A stretch of DNA of 10,733 nt, from the UHGV virus genome UHGV-0333516. One strand, 5' to 3'. Source of the stretch: a virus. The position numbers and the translations under genes are program-made. This document shows positions 1 through 10,733 of the stretch, piece after piece; the first letter of the stretch is position 1, and every line of letters begins with the position of its first letter. The notes under the pieces were generated by a model. That model worked only from the letters and a program-made list of their open reading frames with translations. It ran no database searches and was not told where the DNA came from.

Positions 1-160
1 ATATTATTGATACAGAGTGTATTAACGGAAAAATCGTTGTTGCCCATATCAATGGTGGGCAAGAAGCGACACTCAAAAAATTTGTTGAGGACTGGCCGAA
101 CAGGTATCTCGTCCCACTAAATCCTAACTATAAAACTATTGAATTCTGTATCAATAATAT
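1..160. repeat. 16-bp perfect inverted repeat (1-16 vs reverse complement of 145-160) flanking a 128-bp segment
   Basis: atattattgatacaga at 1-16 equals the reverse complement of 145-160; both copies encode IIDTE in the same codon phase on opposite strands. Confidence 0.9.
3..146 (+). pseudogene. orphan C-terminal S24-peptidase segment of the CI-like repressor, in opposite orientation to the gene body
   Basis: Plus frame from position 3, with no start codon, translates to IIDTECINGKIVVAHINGGQEATLKKFVEDWPNRYLVPLNPNYKTIEF. This aligns with the LexA/CI region holding the catalytic Lys (VTVKRL...LLPENSEFKPIVV). It continues exactly where the minus-strand repressor ORF breaks off. Confidence 0.6.
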
Positions 161-614
161 CTGGCTCTACGATAACGATAGAACCTTCTGGTATCGATGG
201 TGAGCCGAGGGGATTGGTCATTGAATCACCACGGACCCGTAGTGCAAATGCCATTTCTGATACAAGGGCGGTAGTATAAACCCACTCTTCAGCATCTTCT
301 TTCCTGACACCAGGCTCCGTCATTGTCCATGAACCCGCCTGAACCCACGAGATTAGGGGGACTTTTTTAACTGCGAATATTTCAGGTTTTAGATTTATCT
401 TTGGTTCAGGCGAGCCTTTTCCGCTAACAAGCCACAGAGGATCGCATTTAAGTGCGTTGGCTAGGGCTTGAAGGTTGGCTCCATTTGGTTGGTAGTCGTC
501 CTTTTCCCATCCAGTAACCGTGACACGGTTCACACCAGTCAAATCAGCCAGTGCTTGTTGTGTCAGGTTCAGTTCTTTTCGCCTTTGGCGAATACGATCA
601 CTCATGTTCATCAT
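117..614 (-). CDS. CI-like prophage repressor (HTH_XRE + N-terminal part of S24 LexA-like peptidase), apparently truncated
   Basis: N-terminal HTH (LTQQALADLTGVNRVTVTGWE) and Ser-motif GDSM are present. The ORF ends ...IVIVEPDIIDTEFNSFIVRI*, before the Lys-containing half of the S24 domain. The start abuts an operator-like site (leaderless-type arrangement). Confidence 0.8.
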   Translation of the reverse strand: MMNMSDRIRQRRKELNLTQQALADLTGVNRVTVTGWEKDDYQPNGANLQALANALKCDPLWLVSGKGSPEPKINLKPEIFAVKKVPLISWVQAGSWTMTEPGVRKEDAEEWVYTTALVSEMAFALRVRGDSMTNPLGSPSIPEGSIVIVEPDIIDTEFNSFIVRI

Positions 615-3193: not shown

Positions 3194-4185
3194 GCCGTTA
3201 CGCCCCCACACCGGAAGTTATGGCTATTGGTCAAATTAATATTTCCGGCAATGTTACACCTGCGACCTGGTGGAAATATATTCGACTACCCAGTGGGCGT
3301 CCGGATGCGACGGCTATCGCTCTGCTTTCAGAGATCGTTTACTGGTACCGCCCGACAGAGGTCAGGGATGAGCACACCGGAGCGTTGCTGGGATATCGCA
3401 AGCGTTTTCAGGGCGACAAACTGCAAAGAAGCTACCAGGCGTTTGCTGAGCAGTTTGGTTTCGGGAAAAGGGAAACCGCAGATGCGCTGAAGCGTCTGCG
3501 CGATGCAGGGTTTATTACTCTGGATTTACGCACGGTGGAAATGCTCGATGGGGTGAAATGCAGCAATATTTTGTTTGTCGGGATCAACCCACAGGCAATT
3601 GCGGCCATCACCACACCTTCTTCTGTTTCGCCAGAAAGTAACAGCAATAATGCAATCAGCGATACAGCTATTACGTTAAAACGGAACACCCCCCGACGTC
3701 ATAACGGAACAGGGGATACGCCGAATGTTGATACAAATACAGAGATTACTACAGAGATTACTACAGAGATTACAACGGAGACTAAAAACACTATTGGCGC
3801 ATCCGCTGACGCGTCTGCACCAGCGCGTTCTGCCAGACAGGAATATTCACCGGAATTTGAACAGGCCTGGCAGGAATATCCCAAACGTGCTGGTGGTAAT
3901 TCAAAATCCGCCGCTTTTAAAGCCTGGAAAGCCCGAATCAGGGAAGGTGTGACACCCGAAACCATGCTCGACGGTGTGAAACGCTATGCCGCCTGGGTGC
4001 GTGTCTCTGGAAATACCGGTACCCAGTTCGTGAAGCAGGCGTCGACGTTCTTTGGTCCGGATCGTCATTTCGAAGAATCCTGGGAAGTTCCTGCGGTATC
4101 TGCAGCCAGACGCGAGGACCCGTACTTCAAAGCCAGTTACGACAACGTGGACTACAGCCAGATCCCGGAAGGATTCAGGGGGTGA
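3190..4185 (+). CDS. phage replication protein with DnaT-like C-terminus
   Basis: 331-aa ORF with strong RBS ggaaggagg; C-terminal ...DYSQIPEGFRG resembles the C-terminus of primosomal protein DnaT (...SQIPPGFRG); central TEITTEITTEITTE linker. Confidence 0.65.
   Translation: MSRYAPTPEVMAIGQINISGNVTPATWWKYIRLPSGRPDATAIALLSEIVYWYRPTEVRDEHTGALLGYRKRFQGDKLQRSYQAFAEQFGFGKRETADALKRLRDAGFITLDLRTVEMLDGVKCSNILFVGINPQAIAAITTPSSVSPESNSNNAISDTAITLKRNTPRRHNGTGDTPNVDTNTEITTEITTEITTETKNTIGASADASAPARSARQEYSPEFEQAWQEYPKRAGGNSKSAAFKAWKARIREGVTPETMLDGVKRYAAWVRVSGNTGTQFVKQASTFFGPDRHFEESWEVPAVSAARREDPYFKASYDNVDYSQIPEGFRG
3739..3786. repeat. tandem 12-bp direct repeats (about 3.5-4 copies) inside the replication gene
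   Basis: acagagattact x2, acagagattaca, then degenerate acggagactaaa. Confidence 0.8.
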
Positions 4186-7623: not shown

Positions 7624-7640
7624 TTTTGTGGAGAAAGTTG

Positions 7641-8012
7641 ATGCGTGATATTCAAATGGTTCTTGAACGTTGGGGGGCATGGGTGGCAAATAATCACGAG
7701 GATGTGGAATGGTCATCTGTTGCTGCAGGTTTTAAGGGATTAATTCCTTCGAAAGTAAAATCCCGCCCGCAATGTAGCGATGACGATGGCCTGATCATTA
7801 GCTCTGCGATGACAGTTCTTAAGAAAAAGGAACCGTATCAATACGAATTACTGGAAATGTATTATGTGTATGGGGTTACATTACGGGTGTTGGGGGTAAA
7901 ACTGGGGATATCACTTAATCAGGTTGTTATCAGACTGCAGAAAGCTGAAGGGTTTATTGACGGTTGTCTGGCAATGTTGGGGGTATCTTTAGAAATTGAT
8001 TGTTACATATAG
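7641..8012 (+). CDS. late-gene antitermination protein Q (small Q family)
   Basis: MRDIQMVLERWGAWVANNHEDVEWSS...SKVKSRPQCSDDD...RLQKAEGFIDGCLAMLGV matches the Q-family pattern of E. coli cryptic prophages; ATG 7641 with RBS gtggag. Confidence 0.8.
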   Translation: MRDIQMVLERWGAWVANNHEDVEWSSVAAGFKGLIPSKVKSRPQCSDDDGLIISSAMTVLKKKEPYQYELLEMYYVYGVTLRVLGVKLGISLNQVVIRLQKAEGFIDGCLAMLGVSLEIDCYI

Positions 8013-8087
8013 TAATAAATTCAATCAAAGTAAATAATCATATTTTATTATAACCTCCTGATGATACCTGTTCATTGGGAGGTTATT

Positions 8088-8705
8088 ATGGATAAAAATG
8101 TAGAGCATGTATTAGTTGATGCAATTGAAAATAAGCAATCTTTAACAGTCGTTTACTTAGGAGGGAGCCAGCCCGGAACATTAAGGAATATTTCTCCGAT
8201 TAGTATAAATGGGGATAAATTGCGGGCAAGATGCCATAGTTCTGGAGCAGTAAAGGTTTTCAATCTTGGGAAAATACAGTTACCCAGTGACTCCTGCGCG
8301 GTATCTATGCACTATGGAGATTTAGAAGTTAAAGCTTATGAGACGATGCAGAGCGTAAATGACAACTTTCATGCCCTTTATCCTGAAGGACGATGGGGTG
8401 TTGATTTTAATGAGCATCGCTTTGCTTTATTTGATTTTTTTAAAAACGGGAAACGAAAAAAAACGGCATTTATGGCAATTGAGTTCAGGGAAAGAGATGA
8501 AGAGAAAATAATAACAGGTGTAACAATTGATATTGGTATATCTGGAACAGTGATTTCTGAGAAGTCCCGAATCCCAAAAAGACGACCATGGGTAGTGGTT
8601 GGTCCCGAACACGGAGAATACAGTACTTATTCAACTTTGGACAAGGCTGCTACAGCGTTTTTTGAGAGGCTTTCGTTGATAGCATCCGGCCTGGAAGATA
8701 ATTGA
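8088..8705 (+). CDS. hypothetical AT-rich cargo protein with WYL-like N-terminal motif
   Basis: Strong RBS gggagg 5 nt before ATG 8088; about 205 aa; visibly AT-rich compared with flanking genes; N-terminal LTVVYLGGSQPGTLRNISPISINGDKLRARCHSSGAVKVFNLGKI resembles the WYL/SH3-like beta-barrel pattern (by eye). Confidence 0.6.
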   Translation: MDKNVEHVLVDAIENKQSLTVVYLGGSQPGTLRNISPISINGDKLRARCHSSGAVKVFNLGKIQLPSDSCAVSMHYGDLEVKAYETMQSVNDNFHALYPEGRWGVDFNEHRFALFDFFKNGKRKKTAFMAIEFRERDEEKIITGVTIDIGISGTVISEKSRIPKRRPWVVVGPEHGEYSTYSTLDKAATAFFERLSLIASGLEDN

Positions 8706-8835
8706 TTTTATGTTTGGTATTCAGAGTTCGCCGTGCTTAAGAAAGTCAAGATTCTAAAAATACTGAATGAGCTACTTGTGTTATAACAAAAATGCTATTA
8801 GTGTGTTAAGAGTGGTTACTTCGCCACACAACTTA

Positions 8836-8859
8836 AACCCGCCACTGAGCGGGTTTTTT
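8836..8859 (+). terminator. intrinsic terminator (tR'-like)
   Basis: aacccgc-cactga-gcgggtt stem-loop followed by tttttt. Confidence 0.6.
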
Positions 8860-8981
8860 GTACCTGTAAACTTGGTGCAGTACAGTAAACACGCTGGTGG
8901 TCGTGAATACTGACTTTTTATCTTGCTGGCTTTTTAGACAAGAGTTATTGGTATGTCATGTTAACCAGAAGGGAAAAAGAC

Positions 8982-9179
8982 ATGCTAAAACAGCAAGATA
9001 TGACCGAAACCGCCAGAGTGGTGTTTAATGAATTGAGCGTCACCGAACCGGCGACAGTCGGGGAGATTGCGCAGAATACTTACCTTTCACGCGAACGCTG
9101 CCAGTTAATACTGACCCAGCTGGTTATGGCGGGTCTGGCAGACTATCAGTTCGGTTGTTACAGACGCCTTCCGCAGTGA
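8982..9179 (+). CDS. small winged-helix-like protein (PapI/FaeA-like by eye)
   Basis: 65 aa from ATG 8982 (RBS agaaggga); the track start 8958 is in the same frame; TVGEIAQNTYLSRERCQLILTQLVMAGLA resembles small wHTH regulators. Confidence 0.45.
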   Translation: MLKQQDMTETARVVFNELSVTEPATVGEIAQNTYLSRERCQLILTQLVMAGLADYQFGCYRRLPQ

Positions 9180-9193
9180 AGGCTTTTTTATTT
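9166..9193 (+). terminator. intrinsic terminator overlapping the stop of the small wHTH gene
   Basis: gccttc-cgcagt-gaaggc stem-loop followed by ttttttattt. Confidence 0.6.
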
Positions 9194-10615: not shown

Positions 10616-10733
10616 CCCGCGCAACCAGCTTCGAAGGCTGACGCTCTATCCCGATGAGCTAATGGCGGTATGTGATATGGTGGCCCTTGCTGGATTTGAA
10701 CCAGCGACCTGGCGATTATGAGTCGCTCGCTCT
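10616..10733 (-). repeat. perfect 118-bp inverted duplicate of 10449-10566 (partial tRNA-Arg and tRNA-Ile copies), running to the window end
   Basis: 10616-10733 is the exact reverse complement of 10449-10566; the 49-bp unique spacer 10567-10615 holds the tRNA-Arg 3' end. Confidence 0.9.

What the first reader, a model, noticed from the sequence alone, without database searches (positions are those of the whole stretch)
8013..8860. AT-rich cargo gene of unknown function between Q and a tR'-like terminator
Directly downstream of Q, where the late promoter and lysis or toxin cargo normally sit, lies a markedly AT-rich about 205-aa ORF with a strong RBS and no family I recognise. Its N-terminus has a WYL/SH3-like pattern (VVYLGG...LRNISPISINGDKLRARCHSSGAVKVFNLGKI). 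WYL domains are ligand-sensing modules common in defence-system regulators and effectors. If the late promoter is constitutive as in lambda and lies at 8013-8087, this gene would be transcribed in the lysogen and terminated at 8836-8859. That is the expected layout for a prophage-encoded superinfection-exclusion or abortive-infection factor. The composition indicates recent horizontal acquisition. This is the best candidate for an undescribed function in the window.
Basis: partly seen in the sequence, partly recalled or inferred. Interest (0 to 1): 0.8.

Follow-up and report, generated by a model that had tools for sequence, protein, structure and literature searches.

The report
Prophage cargo gene: HTH-less WYL protein
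An E. coli prophage carries, in a swappable slot between its late-gene switch protein Q and Q's own target site, a foreign gene for a small protein built to bind single-stranded nucleic acid; its family is widespread on mobile elements and in defence islands, has never been studied, and is a reasonable but unproven candidate for a new anti-phage factor.

Summary
Window 8088-8705 (+) encodes a real 205-aa protein. It has a GGGAGG ribosome-binding site, 39.7% GC against 49.3% for the window, and dN/dS 0.22 between two alleles. It lies between Q and a conserved intrinsic terminator (8835-8859).

The family has about 950 clusters at 50% identity and is uncharacterised (PHROG 8498). Members occur in prophages, a satellite-like island, an element with conjugation genes and defence islands. 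In three related phage loci the gene follows a CI-like gene, the position rexAB holds in lambda.

The promoter model is not supported. The slot between Q and the conserved block holds six or more alternative cargos, mostly on the reverse strand, or none. A roughly 17-nt motif at 8776-8792 co-varies with Q's HTH class. This puts the Q-binding site and pR' after the gene, not before it.

A -23 kcal/mol hairpin buries the gene's ribosome-binding site and start codon.

Function is untested. My best guess is an ssDNA-sensing factor that protects the lysogen.

The parts
7641..8012 (+). Q antiterminator gene (123 aa from ATG 7641), class A allele. Its AT-rich 3' half belongs to the same linked module as the cargo gene.
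   Evidence: PF06530 E 1.5e-47. Matches Q21 structures 6P18/6JNX at E 5e-10. The HTH-region class is shared only with the allele-2 module. Linkage holds in all 53 E. coli-type IMG/VR loci, 47 of allele 1 and 6 of allele 2.
8013..8087 (+). AT-rich spacer and 5' UTR of the cargo gene. It holds only weak sigma-70-like sites (ATCAAA-16-TATTAT, 8024-8051).
   Evidence: Promoter scans. There is no counterpart in 1720a-02 or FDAARGOS_1297. It is conserved only with allele 2.
8044..8092 (+). RNA hairpin with a 15-bp core stem (8050-8064 paired with 8072-8086). It pairs the Shine-Dalgarno sequence GGGAGG (8077-8082) and the AUG (8088-8090).
   Evidence: MFE -23 kcal/mol, z -5.96, 0 of 200 shuffles fold as well. 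The allele-2 version folds the same way (-18.3 kcal/mol, z -4.16) despite substitutions.
8088..8705 (+). Cargo ORF, 205 aa. WYL domain at residues ~1-66 (8088-8285), variable linker at 67-85, unassigned alpha/beta C-terminal domain at 86-205 (8343-8702).
8456..8463 (+). A8 homopolymer inside the conserved KNGKRKK-coding stretch. It is a site of frameshift variants.
   Evidence: A8 to A9 in L060. The frameshifted proteins P0003 and P0006 are seen in public data.
8776..8804 (+). Candidate Q-binding element and pR' core: TTGTGTTATAACAAAAA (8776-8792, containing the extended -10-like TGTTATAAC at 8779-8787), followed by the -10/SDPE-like hexamer TAGTGT (8799-8804).
   Evidence: The 17-mer is identical in the two diverged WYL modules. 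It is replaced by other motifs where the Q HTH class differs. The hexamer keeps A2 and T6 in all seven variants.
8804..8859 (+). Conserved block (TGTTAAGAGTGGTTACTTCGCCACAC...) ending in the intrinsic terminator 8835-8859 (tR'-type).
   Evidence: At least 95% conserved next to every cargo variant. At least part of 8013-8860 matches in 903 of 5426 complete E. coli genomes, mostly the terminator end. Fold.
8860..8957 (+). Highly conserved non-coding stretch between the terminator and the small wHTH ORF. It includes TAGACA-16-(TG)CATGTT (8935-8962).
8958..9179 (+). Small 73-aa winged-helix ORF (phrog_331; TrmB/MarR-like below threshold). It is present whether or not the slot holds the WYL gene and is followed by a terminator-like hairpin whose stem spans 9166-9183.

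Best explanation
The gene is a horizontally acquired accessory gene (a moron). It sits in a variable cargo slot of a lambdoid E. coli prophage, between the Q gene and Q's own qut/pR'-tR' cassette.

What is shown:
- It encodes a soluble 205-aa protein of two domains.
- The N-terminal domain is a WYL beta-barrel that keeps the residues DriD uses to hold the phosphate backbone of ssDNA (Y23, S27, R33).
- The C-terminal alpha/beta domain has an unassigned fold. Its conserved residues are basic or aromatic (W103, K119-N-G121, K125, P167-W168). It has no conserved catalytic acid or histidine.
- The protein has no HTH and no recognisable enzyme domain.

What is inferred:
- The protein binds single-stranded nucleic acid, most likely ssDNA, in a cleft between the two domains.
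- It acts as a lysogen-protective exclusion or defence factor. It would sense or occlude ssDNA intermediates of an incoming phage or other mobile element, either directly or by engaging a host partner.
- Expression is kept low and conditional. Read-through mRNA from Q carries a hairpin that hides the ribosome-binding site and AUG. Only a transcript starting inside the hairpin (a weak promoter at 8024-8051 would start it near 8058), or a processed RNA, would be translated. All transcripts end at the tR'-type terminator.
For: Protein:
- The family profile hits the DriD WYL domain at E 1.3e-4, aligning YxGGSxPGxxRExxP.
- DriD residues Y168, S172 and R178 are ssDNA phosphate contacts (PMC9186387). 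Their equivalents are 93-100% conserved in 143 relatives.
- 50 of 81 relatives hit PF13280.

Selection: dN/dS is 0.22 overall, 0.14 in the WYL domain and 0.23 in the C-terminal domain.

Cargo slot:
- Empty in phage 1720a-02.
- Holds other genes in FDAARGOS_1297, FORC_043, EC13, AR_0162 and 377323_2f.
- The WYL gene is always linked to one Q class.

Contexts of relatives:
- Directly downstream of a CI-like gene and divergent from Cro and a Toprim-domain (primase-like) gene in L063, L064 and L067.
- Beside cI in L013.
- At the end of a satellite-like island next to PDC-S52.
- In defence islands beside PDC-S06 and PDC-S73 (L069), and beside NsnA/NsnB-like and PDC-S15-like genes (L070).
- In an element with TraG_N and an integrase (L010).

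Hairpin.
Against: - No phenotype, binding or expression data exist.
- No PADLOC system model matches the protein; only generic WYL models do.
- None of the alternative cargos in the E. coli slot hits PADLOC, so the slot is not shown to be a defence hotspot.
- The protein has no recognisable effector, so how binding would stop a phage is unknown.
- In this prophage the gene is on the lytic strand after Q, where it would also be transcribed during lytic growth. That suits a phage-serving role equally well.
- The three CI-adjacent examples belong to one phage lineage.
- The proposed own promoter is weak (3/6 and 5/6 matches) and unverified.
- The AT-rich DNA may be H-NS-silenced in E. coli (general knowledge, not tested).
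- Several copies are broken by IS1, IS5 or a frameshift.
Confidence: 0.4

Rival explanations
1. Phage-serving counter-defence. The protein is made with the delayed-early genes (read-through from Q). It mops up or masks ssDNA produced by phage replication and recombination. Host systems that use ssDNA as an alarm would then stay silent; these include WYL repressors such as CapW and BrxR, RecA/SOS, and other ssDNA-triggered immunity. It would act as an HTH-less decoy of the host sensors.
For: - Same strand and same operon direction as Q, with no terminator between Q and the gene.
- It is in effect the ligand-sensing domain of ssDNA-responsive regulators without the DNA-binding output.
- Relatives occur in prophages, a satellite-like island and an element with conjugation genes, all of which replicate or transfer through ssDNA stages.
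Against: - The fold resemblances are in the noise range.
- Placement after a CI-like gene and inside chromosomal defence islands is unusual for anti-defence genes.
- The SD-sequestering hairpin would block translation of exactly the read-through transcripts that this model needs.
Confidence: 0.2
2. Regulator of the prophage's own development. The protein senses ssDNA (DNA damage or the onset of phage replication) and passes this on by protein-protein contact to a phage regulator, tuning induction or the early-to-late switch. Candidate targets are a repressor without a cleavage domain, Q, or the small wHTH protein at 8958-9179. It would be a split version of wHTH-WYL regulators.
For: - In L063, L064 and L067 the gene directly follows a 138-152-aa CI-like protein that has an HTH but no S24 peptidase domain.
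- In the window it sits between Q and Q's target site and is linked to one Q class.
- A 73-aa wHTH ORF lies just downstream.
- WYL regulators are SOS-independent damage sensors (PMC9186387, PMC11662680).
Against: - The wHTH ORF and the Q-pR' cassette function in many phages without the gene.
- Relatives occur outside phages, in defence islands and next to IS elements with no phage regulator nearby.
- L013 has a full cI with a peptidase domain.
- There is no conserved partner gene.
Confidence: 0.2
3. The late promoter pR' lies at 8013-8087, and the gene is transcribed constitutively as part of a pR'-tR' leader unit that ends at 8836-8859.
For: - The gene lies between Q and the terminator.
- The spacer is AT-rich with several weak -10-like hexamers.
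- The spacer is co-inherited with this Q class.
Against: - 8013-8087 has no counterpart in related phages that lack the gene, although they share the conserved block downstream.
- In five other prophages the slot holds cargo, on the reverse strand in four of them. In FDAARGOS_1297 a + strand terminator follows Q directly, so late transcription there must start after the slot.
- The motif that co-varies with the Q HTH class is at 8776-8792.
- The best + strand promoter-like match in 8013-8087 overlaps the start codon.
Confidence: 0.07

Closest known systems
wHTH-WYL-WCX regulators (DriD, CapW, BrxR, PafBC)
   Same: - The YxGGSxPGxxRE loop, with the DriD ssDNA-phosphate contacts Y168, S172 and R178 conserved.
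- Association with phage, defence and DNA-damage biology.
   Different: - No HTH; the protein starts at the WYL domain.
- It is not placed beside an operon it could regulate.
- It therefore cannot work as a DNA-binding transcription factor on its own.
WYL1 (Cas13d accessory protein, PDB 6OAW)
   Different: - From my own knowledge, WYL1 has an N-terminal ribbon-helix-helix domain and its own dimerisation domain; this was not checked here.
- It is tied to CRISPR loci, and no Cas13 or CRISPR context is seen here.
- The structural match is much weaker than to DriD, BrxR or CapW.
Lambda RexAB / SieB-type lysogeny-expressed exclusion genes
   Same: - Accessory, dispensable prophage cargo.
- In three related phage loci the gene occupies the position directly after the CI-like gene, as rexAB does in lambda.
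   Different: - No sequence or fold similarity.
- A single soluble protein.
- In this window the gene follows Q, not cI.
- No phenotype is known.
Prophage hotspots of antiviral systems (P2/P4 hotspots, PMC9122126)
   Same: A fixed slot flanked by conserved phage sequence. It can be empty or hold unrelated, often reverse-oriented, AT-rich cargo in different E. coli prophages.
   Different: - This slot lies between Q and its qut/pR' site in lambdoid phages.
- None of the six cargos tested here matches a PADLOC model, so a defence role for the slot is unproven.
Lambdoid Q-pR'-tR' cassette (Q21 type)
   Same: - Q of family PF06530.
- A conserved promoter-proximal block ending in an intrinsic terminator.
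- An adjacent motif that co-varies with Q's HTH region, as expected of a Q-binding element.
   Different: - About 760 bp of cargo separates Q from its site, against about 35 bp in 1720a-02.
- The exact -10, SDPE and transcription start are not mapped.

Membership tests
WYL domain superfamily (PF13280) | Sm/SH3-like five-stranded beta-barrel fold | tested here: met
   [not shown]
WYL domain superfamily (PF13280) | Match to the Pfam model above its gathering score | tested here: inconclusive
   The window protein scores 16.5 bits against a cut-off of 21.8 (E 0.0085). Among relatives, 50 of 81 match at E <= 0.1, best 4.8e-8. The family profile against DriD chains gives E 1.3e-4.
WYL domain superfamily (PF13280) | Conserved ligand-contact residues on beta2 and the beta2-beta3 loop (DriD Y168, S172, R178) | tested here: met
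   Y23, S27 and R33 align to them. They are conserved at 100%, 93% and 100% in 143 relatives.
WYL domain superfamily (PF13280) | Demonstrated binding of ssDNA, ssRNA or a nucleotide ligand | not testable with these tools
   This needs EMSA or fluorescence polarisation with purified protein.
wHTH-WYL-WCX transcription regulators (CapW/BrxR/DriD/PafBC/YafY) | N-terminal (winged) helix-turn-helix DNA-binding domain | tested here: not met
   The WYL domain begins at about residue 8. There is no HTH hit in Pfam or NCBIfam. Nearly all of the best 150 representative clusters are 185-210 aa with the same start.
wHTH-WYL-WCX transcription regulators (CapW/BrxR/DriD/PafBC/YafY) | C-terminal WCX dimerisation domain | tested here: not met
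   [not shown]
Known anti-phage defence systems (PADLOC-DB v2.0.0) | Match to a system-specific protein model | tested here: not met
   Only the generic Cas-associated WYL models match, at E 0.0014 and 0.0066.
Defence-island / mobile-element accessory gene (guilt by association) | Recurrent placement next to defence genes or in lysogeny modules of unrelated elements | tested here: met
   Neighbours are PDC-S06 and PDC-S73 (L069), NsnA/NsnB-like and PDC-S15-like genes (L070), and PDC-S52 (L009). The gene follows a CI-like gene in L063, L064 and L067 and lies beside cI in L013. The sample is about 18 distinct contexts and is not a statistical enrichment test.
   The motif that co-varies with Q class lies at 8776-8792, downstream of the gene. 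In other prophages the slot holds reverse-strand cargo and, in one, a terminator directly after Q.
Prophage variable cargo slot (moron hotspot) | Conserved flanks with an empty site and alternative unrelated cargos | tested here: met
   The slot is empty in 1720a-02. It holds the WYL gene in 51 of 5426 complete E. coli genomes. Five other cargos occur in L011 and L074-L077.

The most novel reading that the evidence does not exclude
The protein is a phage-encoded 'alarm silencer'. As an HTH-less copy of the ssDNA-sensing module of host WYL regulators, it would sequester the ssDNA signal, or poison host WYL dimers. Mobile elements could then replicate or transfer without derepressing CapW/BrxR-type controlled defences or SOS-independent damage responses. 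This would be a new class of anti-defence acting on the regulation of immunity rather than on its effectors.
Probability: 0.15. Interest if true: 0.85.

Novelty: new variant of a known kind. Interest (0 to 1): 0.55.

Why it matters
WYL domains are known mainly as the sensor half of transcription factors that switch on DNA-damage and anti-phage responses when they bind ssDNA. This family keeps the sensor, drops the DNA-binding output, and adds a domain of unknown fold. It is carried as stand-alone cargo by prophages, a satellite-like island, an element with conjugation genes and defence islands across Proteobacteria and Bacteroidota. Some relatives are membrane-anchored.

Whichever reading is right (single-gene immunity, an anti-alarm decoy, or a split damage sensor), it would show a new way of using ssDNA sensing in phage-host conflict.

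The locus analysis also defines a cargo hotspot between Q and its qut site in E. coli lambdoid prophages, including relatives of Stx phages. It gives a comparative way to locate Q-binding elements, which matters for understanding what is co-expressed with late genes and toxins.

All of this can be tested directly with an 850-bp fragment.

Tried and rejected
- **Known-family assignment.** Pfam, NCBIfam, PHROGs and PADLOC gave only a sub-threshold WYL hit and PHROG 8498, which has no known function.
- **Conserved partner gene.** An all-against-all BLAST of neighbours found none. The exception is a 150-aa 'domain X', fused in P0067 and encoded separately in L008, which is absent from the window.
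- **Fusion partners in longer relatives.** These were only TM anchors, zinc ribbons, a second WYL domain and one DEDD exonuclease. None is informative for the E. coli protein.
- **Published pR' sequences.** The Q21 and Stx pR' papers give sequences only in figures, so they could not be used.
- **Rfam.** All hits around the terminator were below threshold (STnc130 on the minus strand, ErsA-like, isrJ). I treated them as terminator-driven noise.
- **Genome-wide locus scan.** It returned only 4 loci because the peptide patterns were too narrow. The first viral scan with the 81-sequence alignment failed for lack of a conserved stretch.
- **Literature.** Searches for the accession, and for WYL combined with prophage, defence or exclusion terms, found nothing on this protein.
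- **RNA thermometer.** Rejected as a reading of the hairpin, because -23 kcal/mol is too stable.
- **Terminator.** Rejected as a reading of the same hairpin, because no U-tract follows it.
Full report
**1. What is in the sequence**

The window is a lambdoid E. coli prophage. In order it carries:
- a cI-like gene and a cro-like gene;
- replication genes;
- a KilA-N gene and a DUF968 gene;
- Q (PF06530, E 1.5e-47);
- the gene in question;
- a small wHTH ORF;
- a DNA methylase;
- tRNA-Met and tRNA-Arg.

The region 7626-8960 is 100% identical to E. coli E189. The 848 bp of the finding are identical in S88, MS7163 and others.

The ORF runs 8088-8705 (+) and encodes 205 aa. GGGAGG lies five nt before the ATG. 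RefSeq and all homologues use this start.

GC falls to 0.35-0.42 across 7800-9000, against 0.50-0.57 in the flanks. The gene has 39.7% GC and 32% GC3, against 49.3% for the window.

A second allele with 71% amino-acid identity occupies the same position in other prophages (L006, L055-L059, L062). Between the two alleles dN/dS is 0.22 overall, 0.14 in the N-terminal domain and 0.23 in the C-terminal domain. Both domains are therefore under purifying selection.

**2. The protein**

Library searches gave little:
- Pfam gives only a sub-threshold WYL hit (16.5 bits, cut-off 21.8).
- PADLOC gives only generic WYL models.
- PHROGs gives a full-length match to phrog_8498, which has no known function.
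- PGAP already names the S88 copy 'WYL domain-containing protein'.

An AF2 model (pLDDT 74.5) shows an N-terminal beta-barrel, a disordered linker (residues 69-80) and an alpha/beta C-terminal domain.

A profile of 81 family members hits the DriD WYL domain at E 1.3e-4. It aligns 'iiYhGGsqpGavReIaPi' with DriD 'FRYEGGSTPGRTREVTPL'. In the DriD-ssDNA structures, Y168, S172 and R178 of this segment hydrogen-bond the ssDNA backbone (PMC9186387). Their equivalents Y23, S27 and R33 are conserved at 100%, 93% and 100% in 143 relatives. K56, F58 and K62 on the following strands are also conserved.

The WYL call is therefore right, and a single-stranded nucleic acid is the most likely ligand. That last step is inferred.

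**3. What the protein lacks**

It has no HTH; the WYL domain starts at about residue 8.

The C-terminal domain was modelled separately (pLDDT 84, pTM 0.74). Its layout is helix, three strands, a variable insert, two strands, helix. The search results were:
- BFVD gives nothing below E 0.02.
- Pfam gives nothing.

The conserved residues of this domain are W103, L114, K119-N-G121, K125, P167-W168, A187 and F191. No conserved acidic or histidine cluster is present. This points to a binding or assembly domain rather than an enzyme (inference).

**4. The family**

The word-indexed search found only 9 relatives. The exhaustive HMM search found 952 clusters at E <= 1e-3, of which 186 are at E <= 1e-30. 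Nearly all are 185-210 aa with the same two domains.

Variants include:
- N-terminal membrane anchors (P0127, P0142, P0145, P0151);
- a C-terminal zinc ribbon plus TM segment (P0089);
- tandem WYL domains, with a C-terminal TM segment in one of the two (P0224, P0213);
- a fusion to a 150-aa 'domain X' (P0067), which is a separate downstream gene in Pseudoalteromonas (41% identity).

No paper in the library mentions this protein.

**5. Where relatives sit**

| Locus | Context |
|---|---|
| L063, L064, L067 | Directly after a 138-152-aa CI-like HTH gene on the same strand, divergent from a Cro/YdaS gene and a Toprim-domain (primase-like) gene. This is the place rexAB holds in lambda. All three belong to one phage lineage. 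|
| L013 | Between the early-left operon and a full cI |
| L012 | Near an integrase and HicA |
| L009 | Last gene of a satellite-like island with capsid genes, followed by a PDC-S52-like gene |
| L010 | In an element with TraG_N and an integrase |
| L069 | Follows PDC-S06 (E 2e-268) and PDC-S73 (E 6e-165) |
| L070 | Follows NsnB-like, PDC-S15-like and NsnA genes (E 1e-57 for NsnA) and precedes a NERD-like protein |
| L066, L068 | Next to IS elements and helicase fragments |

No partner gene is conserved across these loci.

This is guilt by association from about 18 contexts, not a statistical test. It does favour an accessory conflict function.

**6. The locus in E. coli**

All 53 E. coli-type IMG/VR loci (47 of allele 1 and 6 of allele 2) and all 51 complete genomes with the gene show the same order: DUF968, Q, 75-bp spacer, WYL gene, conserved block, small wHTH ORF.

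Phage 1720a-02 and many Stx phages have the flanks without the gene. There, only about 35 nt separate the Q stop codon from the conserved block TGTTAAGAGTGGTTACTTCGCCACAC...terminator.

Other prophages hold different cargo in the same slot:

| Strain | Cargo | Strand |
|---|---|---|
| FDAARGOS_1297 | 148-aa lipoprotein-like gene | reverse |
| FORC_043 | 391-aa 'nucleoid-associated protein' plus another gene | reverse |
| EC13 | 339-aa gene | reverse |
| AR_0162 | 313-aa and roughly 149-aa genes | reverse |
| 377323_2f | 141-aa gene | forward |

. None of these cargos matches PADLOC. The slot is thus a cargo hotspot. Its link to defence is not shown.

**7. Where the late promoter is**

Four points argue against this.

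1. That stretch is conserved only with the allele-2 module. It has no counterpart in phages that lack the gene.
2. Reverse-strand cargo in the slot, and in FDAARGOS_1297 a + strand terminator directly after Q, mean that late transcription there must start after the slot.
3. In seven variants the hexamer abutting the conserved block keeps A at position 2 and T at position 6, the signature of a -10 or sigma-dependent pause element. The seven versions are TAGTGT, TAATCT (twice), TATGCT, CAGTAT, TATTGT and TACTGT.
4. The roughly 17 nt upstream of that hexamer co-vary with the HTH-like region of Q:
   - class A Q (window and allele 2; 53 of 62 identical in the C-terminal 70 residues) goes with TTGTGTTATAACAAAAA, which is identical in both modules although the surrounding DNA is about 76% identical;
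   - class B Q (1720a-02 and EC13; 45 of 64) goes with TTAGCGCGGTCCGCAAAAA or CTAACGCGGTCCGCATTTT;
   - class C Q (FDAARGOS_1297) goes with CCGTTTACAATCGTAAAAAA.

Co-variation of a promoter-proximal element with Q's DNA-binding region is what is expected of a Q-binding element (Q21 structural work).

I therefore place the QBE and pR' at about 8776-8804 and read 8835-8859 as tR'. The terminator stem changes between variants while keeping pairing. The exact -10, pause element and transcription start remain unmapped.

The gene is upstream of pR', not inside a pR'-tR' unit.

**8. Expression signals of the gene itself**

A hairpin at 8044-8092 pairs the Shine-Dalgarno sequence and the AUG. Its core is 15 bp, its free energy is -23 kcal/mol and its z-score is -5.96. 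The allele-2 version folds the same way despite substitutions (z -4.16).

No U-tract follows the hairpin, so it is not a terminator.

Any transcript reading through from Q would be poorly translated. A weak promoter-like site, ATCAAA-16-TATTAT (8024-8051), would start RNA near 8058. That is inside the 5' arm, so the ribosome-binding site would be free. RNase III cleavage of the roughly 20-bp helix would have a similar effect. Both ideas are inferences.

**9. Mechanism and verdict**

Shown:
- the gene is real, foreign and under selection;
- it encodes an HTH-less WYL protein with conserved ssDNA-contact residues and an unassigned C-terminal domain;
- it occupies a cargo slot between Q and Q's site;
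- its translation start is structurally masked.

Inferred:
- it binds single-stranded nucleic acid;
- it most likely serves the lysogen as an exclusion or defence factor (confidence about 0.4).

The main rivals are an ssDNA-masking counter-defence protein (0.2) and a damage or replication sensor for the prophage's own switch (0.2).

It is not a member of the wHTH-WYL-WCX regulator family, because two defining features failed. It matches no described defence system.

I rate it a new variant of a known kind. It is interesting and cheap to test, but nothing functional is established yet.

Noticed in passing
window 8047-8074, minus strand: A near-consensus sigma-70 promoter-like site, TGAACA-16-TATAAT (10 of 12 matches), points leftwards from inside the hairpin region into the 3' end of Q. 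This resembles lambda's anti-Q promoter paQ. In allele 2 it is weaker (TGAACG-16-TACTGT).
   Followed up: partly
L032 6214-7000; L061 4637-5831; L060 (corresponds to window 8456-8463): There are three independent disruptions of the gene in public prophages. IS1 is inserted in the hairpin just upstream of the ribosome-binding site. IS5 is inserted after nt 238 of the ORF. An A8 to A9 frameshift occurs in the KNGKRKK-coding tract. Frameshifted products also appear in protein databases (P0003, P0006). This could reflect decay or a fitness cost.
   Followed up: partly
P0067 residues ~200-356; L008 768-1223: A Rosetta-stone link. A 150-aa domain of unknown function is fused to the C-terminus of one family member and is encoded as a separate gene immediately downstream of another (41% identity, E 3e-37). 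It is absent from the window. phrog_31886 (374 aa) may be the same fusion.
   Followed up: partly
P0127, P0142, P0145, P0151, P0089, P0224: Several distant family members carry N- or C-terminal transmembrane segments, one of them with zinc ribbons. This suggests that some versions act at the membrane.
   Followed up: no
window 8860-8957: The non-coding stretch between the terminator and the small wHTH ORF is more conserved across prophages than the flanking genes. It contains TAGACA-16-(TG)CATGTT. Rfam gives only sub-threshold hits here and over the terminator: STnc130 on the minus strand (30 bits, cut-off 55), an ErsA-like match at the 5' end (23.6 bits) and isrJ (16 bits).
   Followed up: partly
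L011, L074, L075, L076, L077 (E. coli prophages): The slot between Q and its qut site holds at least five other unrelated cargos, four of them on the reverse strand. Examples are a 391-aa 'nucleoid-associated protein' pair and a lipoprotein-like 148-aa gene. None matches PADLOC. The slot may be an unexplored accessory-gene hotspot of lambdoid and Stx-type phages.
   Followed up: partly
window 117-614, minus strand: The cI-like repressor ORF (165 aa) has the HTH and the start of an S24 peptidase domain (GDSM), then stops early compared with typical 215-235-aa repressors. The prophage may have a non-cleavable or defective repressor.
   Followed up: no
window 3738-3781 and 637-678: A 12-bp unit occurs 3.7 times (TACAGAGATTAC, encoding TEITTEITTEITTE) inside the replication-initiator gene and looks like origin iterons. 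A 22-bp unit occurs 1.9 times between the cI-like and cro-like genes and looks like operator sites.
   Followed up: no
window 8958-9179: A 73-aa winged-helix ORF (phrog_331; TrmB/MarR-like below threshold) follows the tR'-type terminator in all related phages, including Stx phages, phiP27 and SfV. It has its own downstream terminator-like hairpin whose stem spans 9166-9183. Its role in late regulation is unknown.
   Followed up: no
window 10616-10733: The last 118 bases match the tRNA region of the S88 prophage in inverted orientation (95.8% identity). This suggests a rearrangement or inverted duplication next to the tRNA genes.
   Followed up: no
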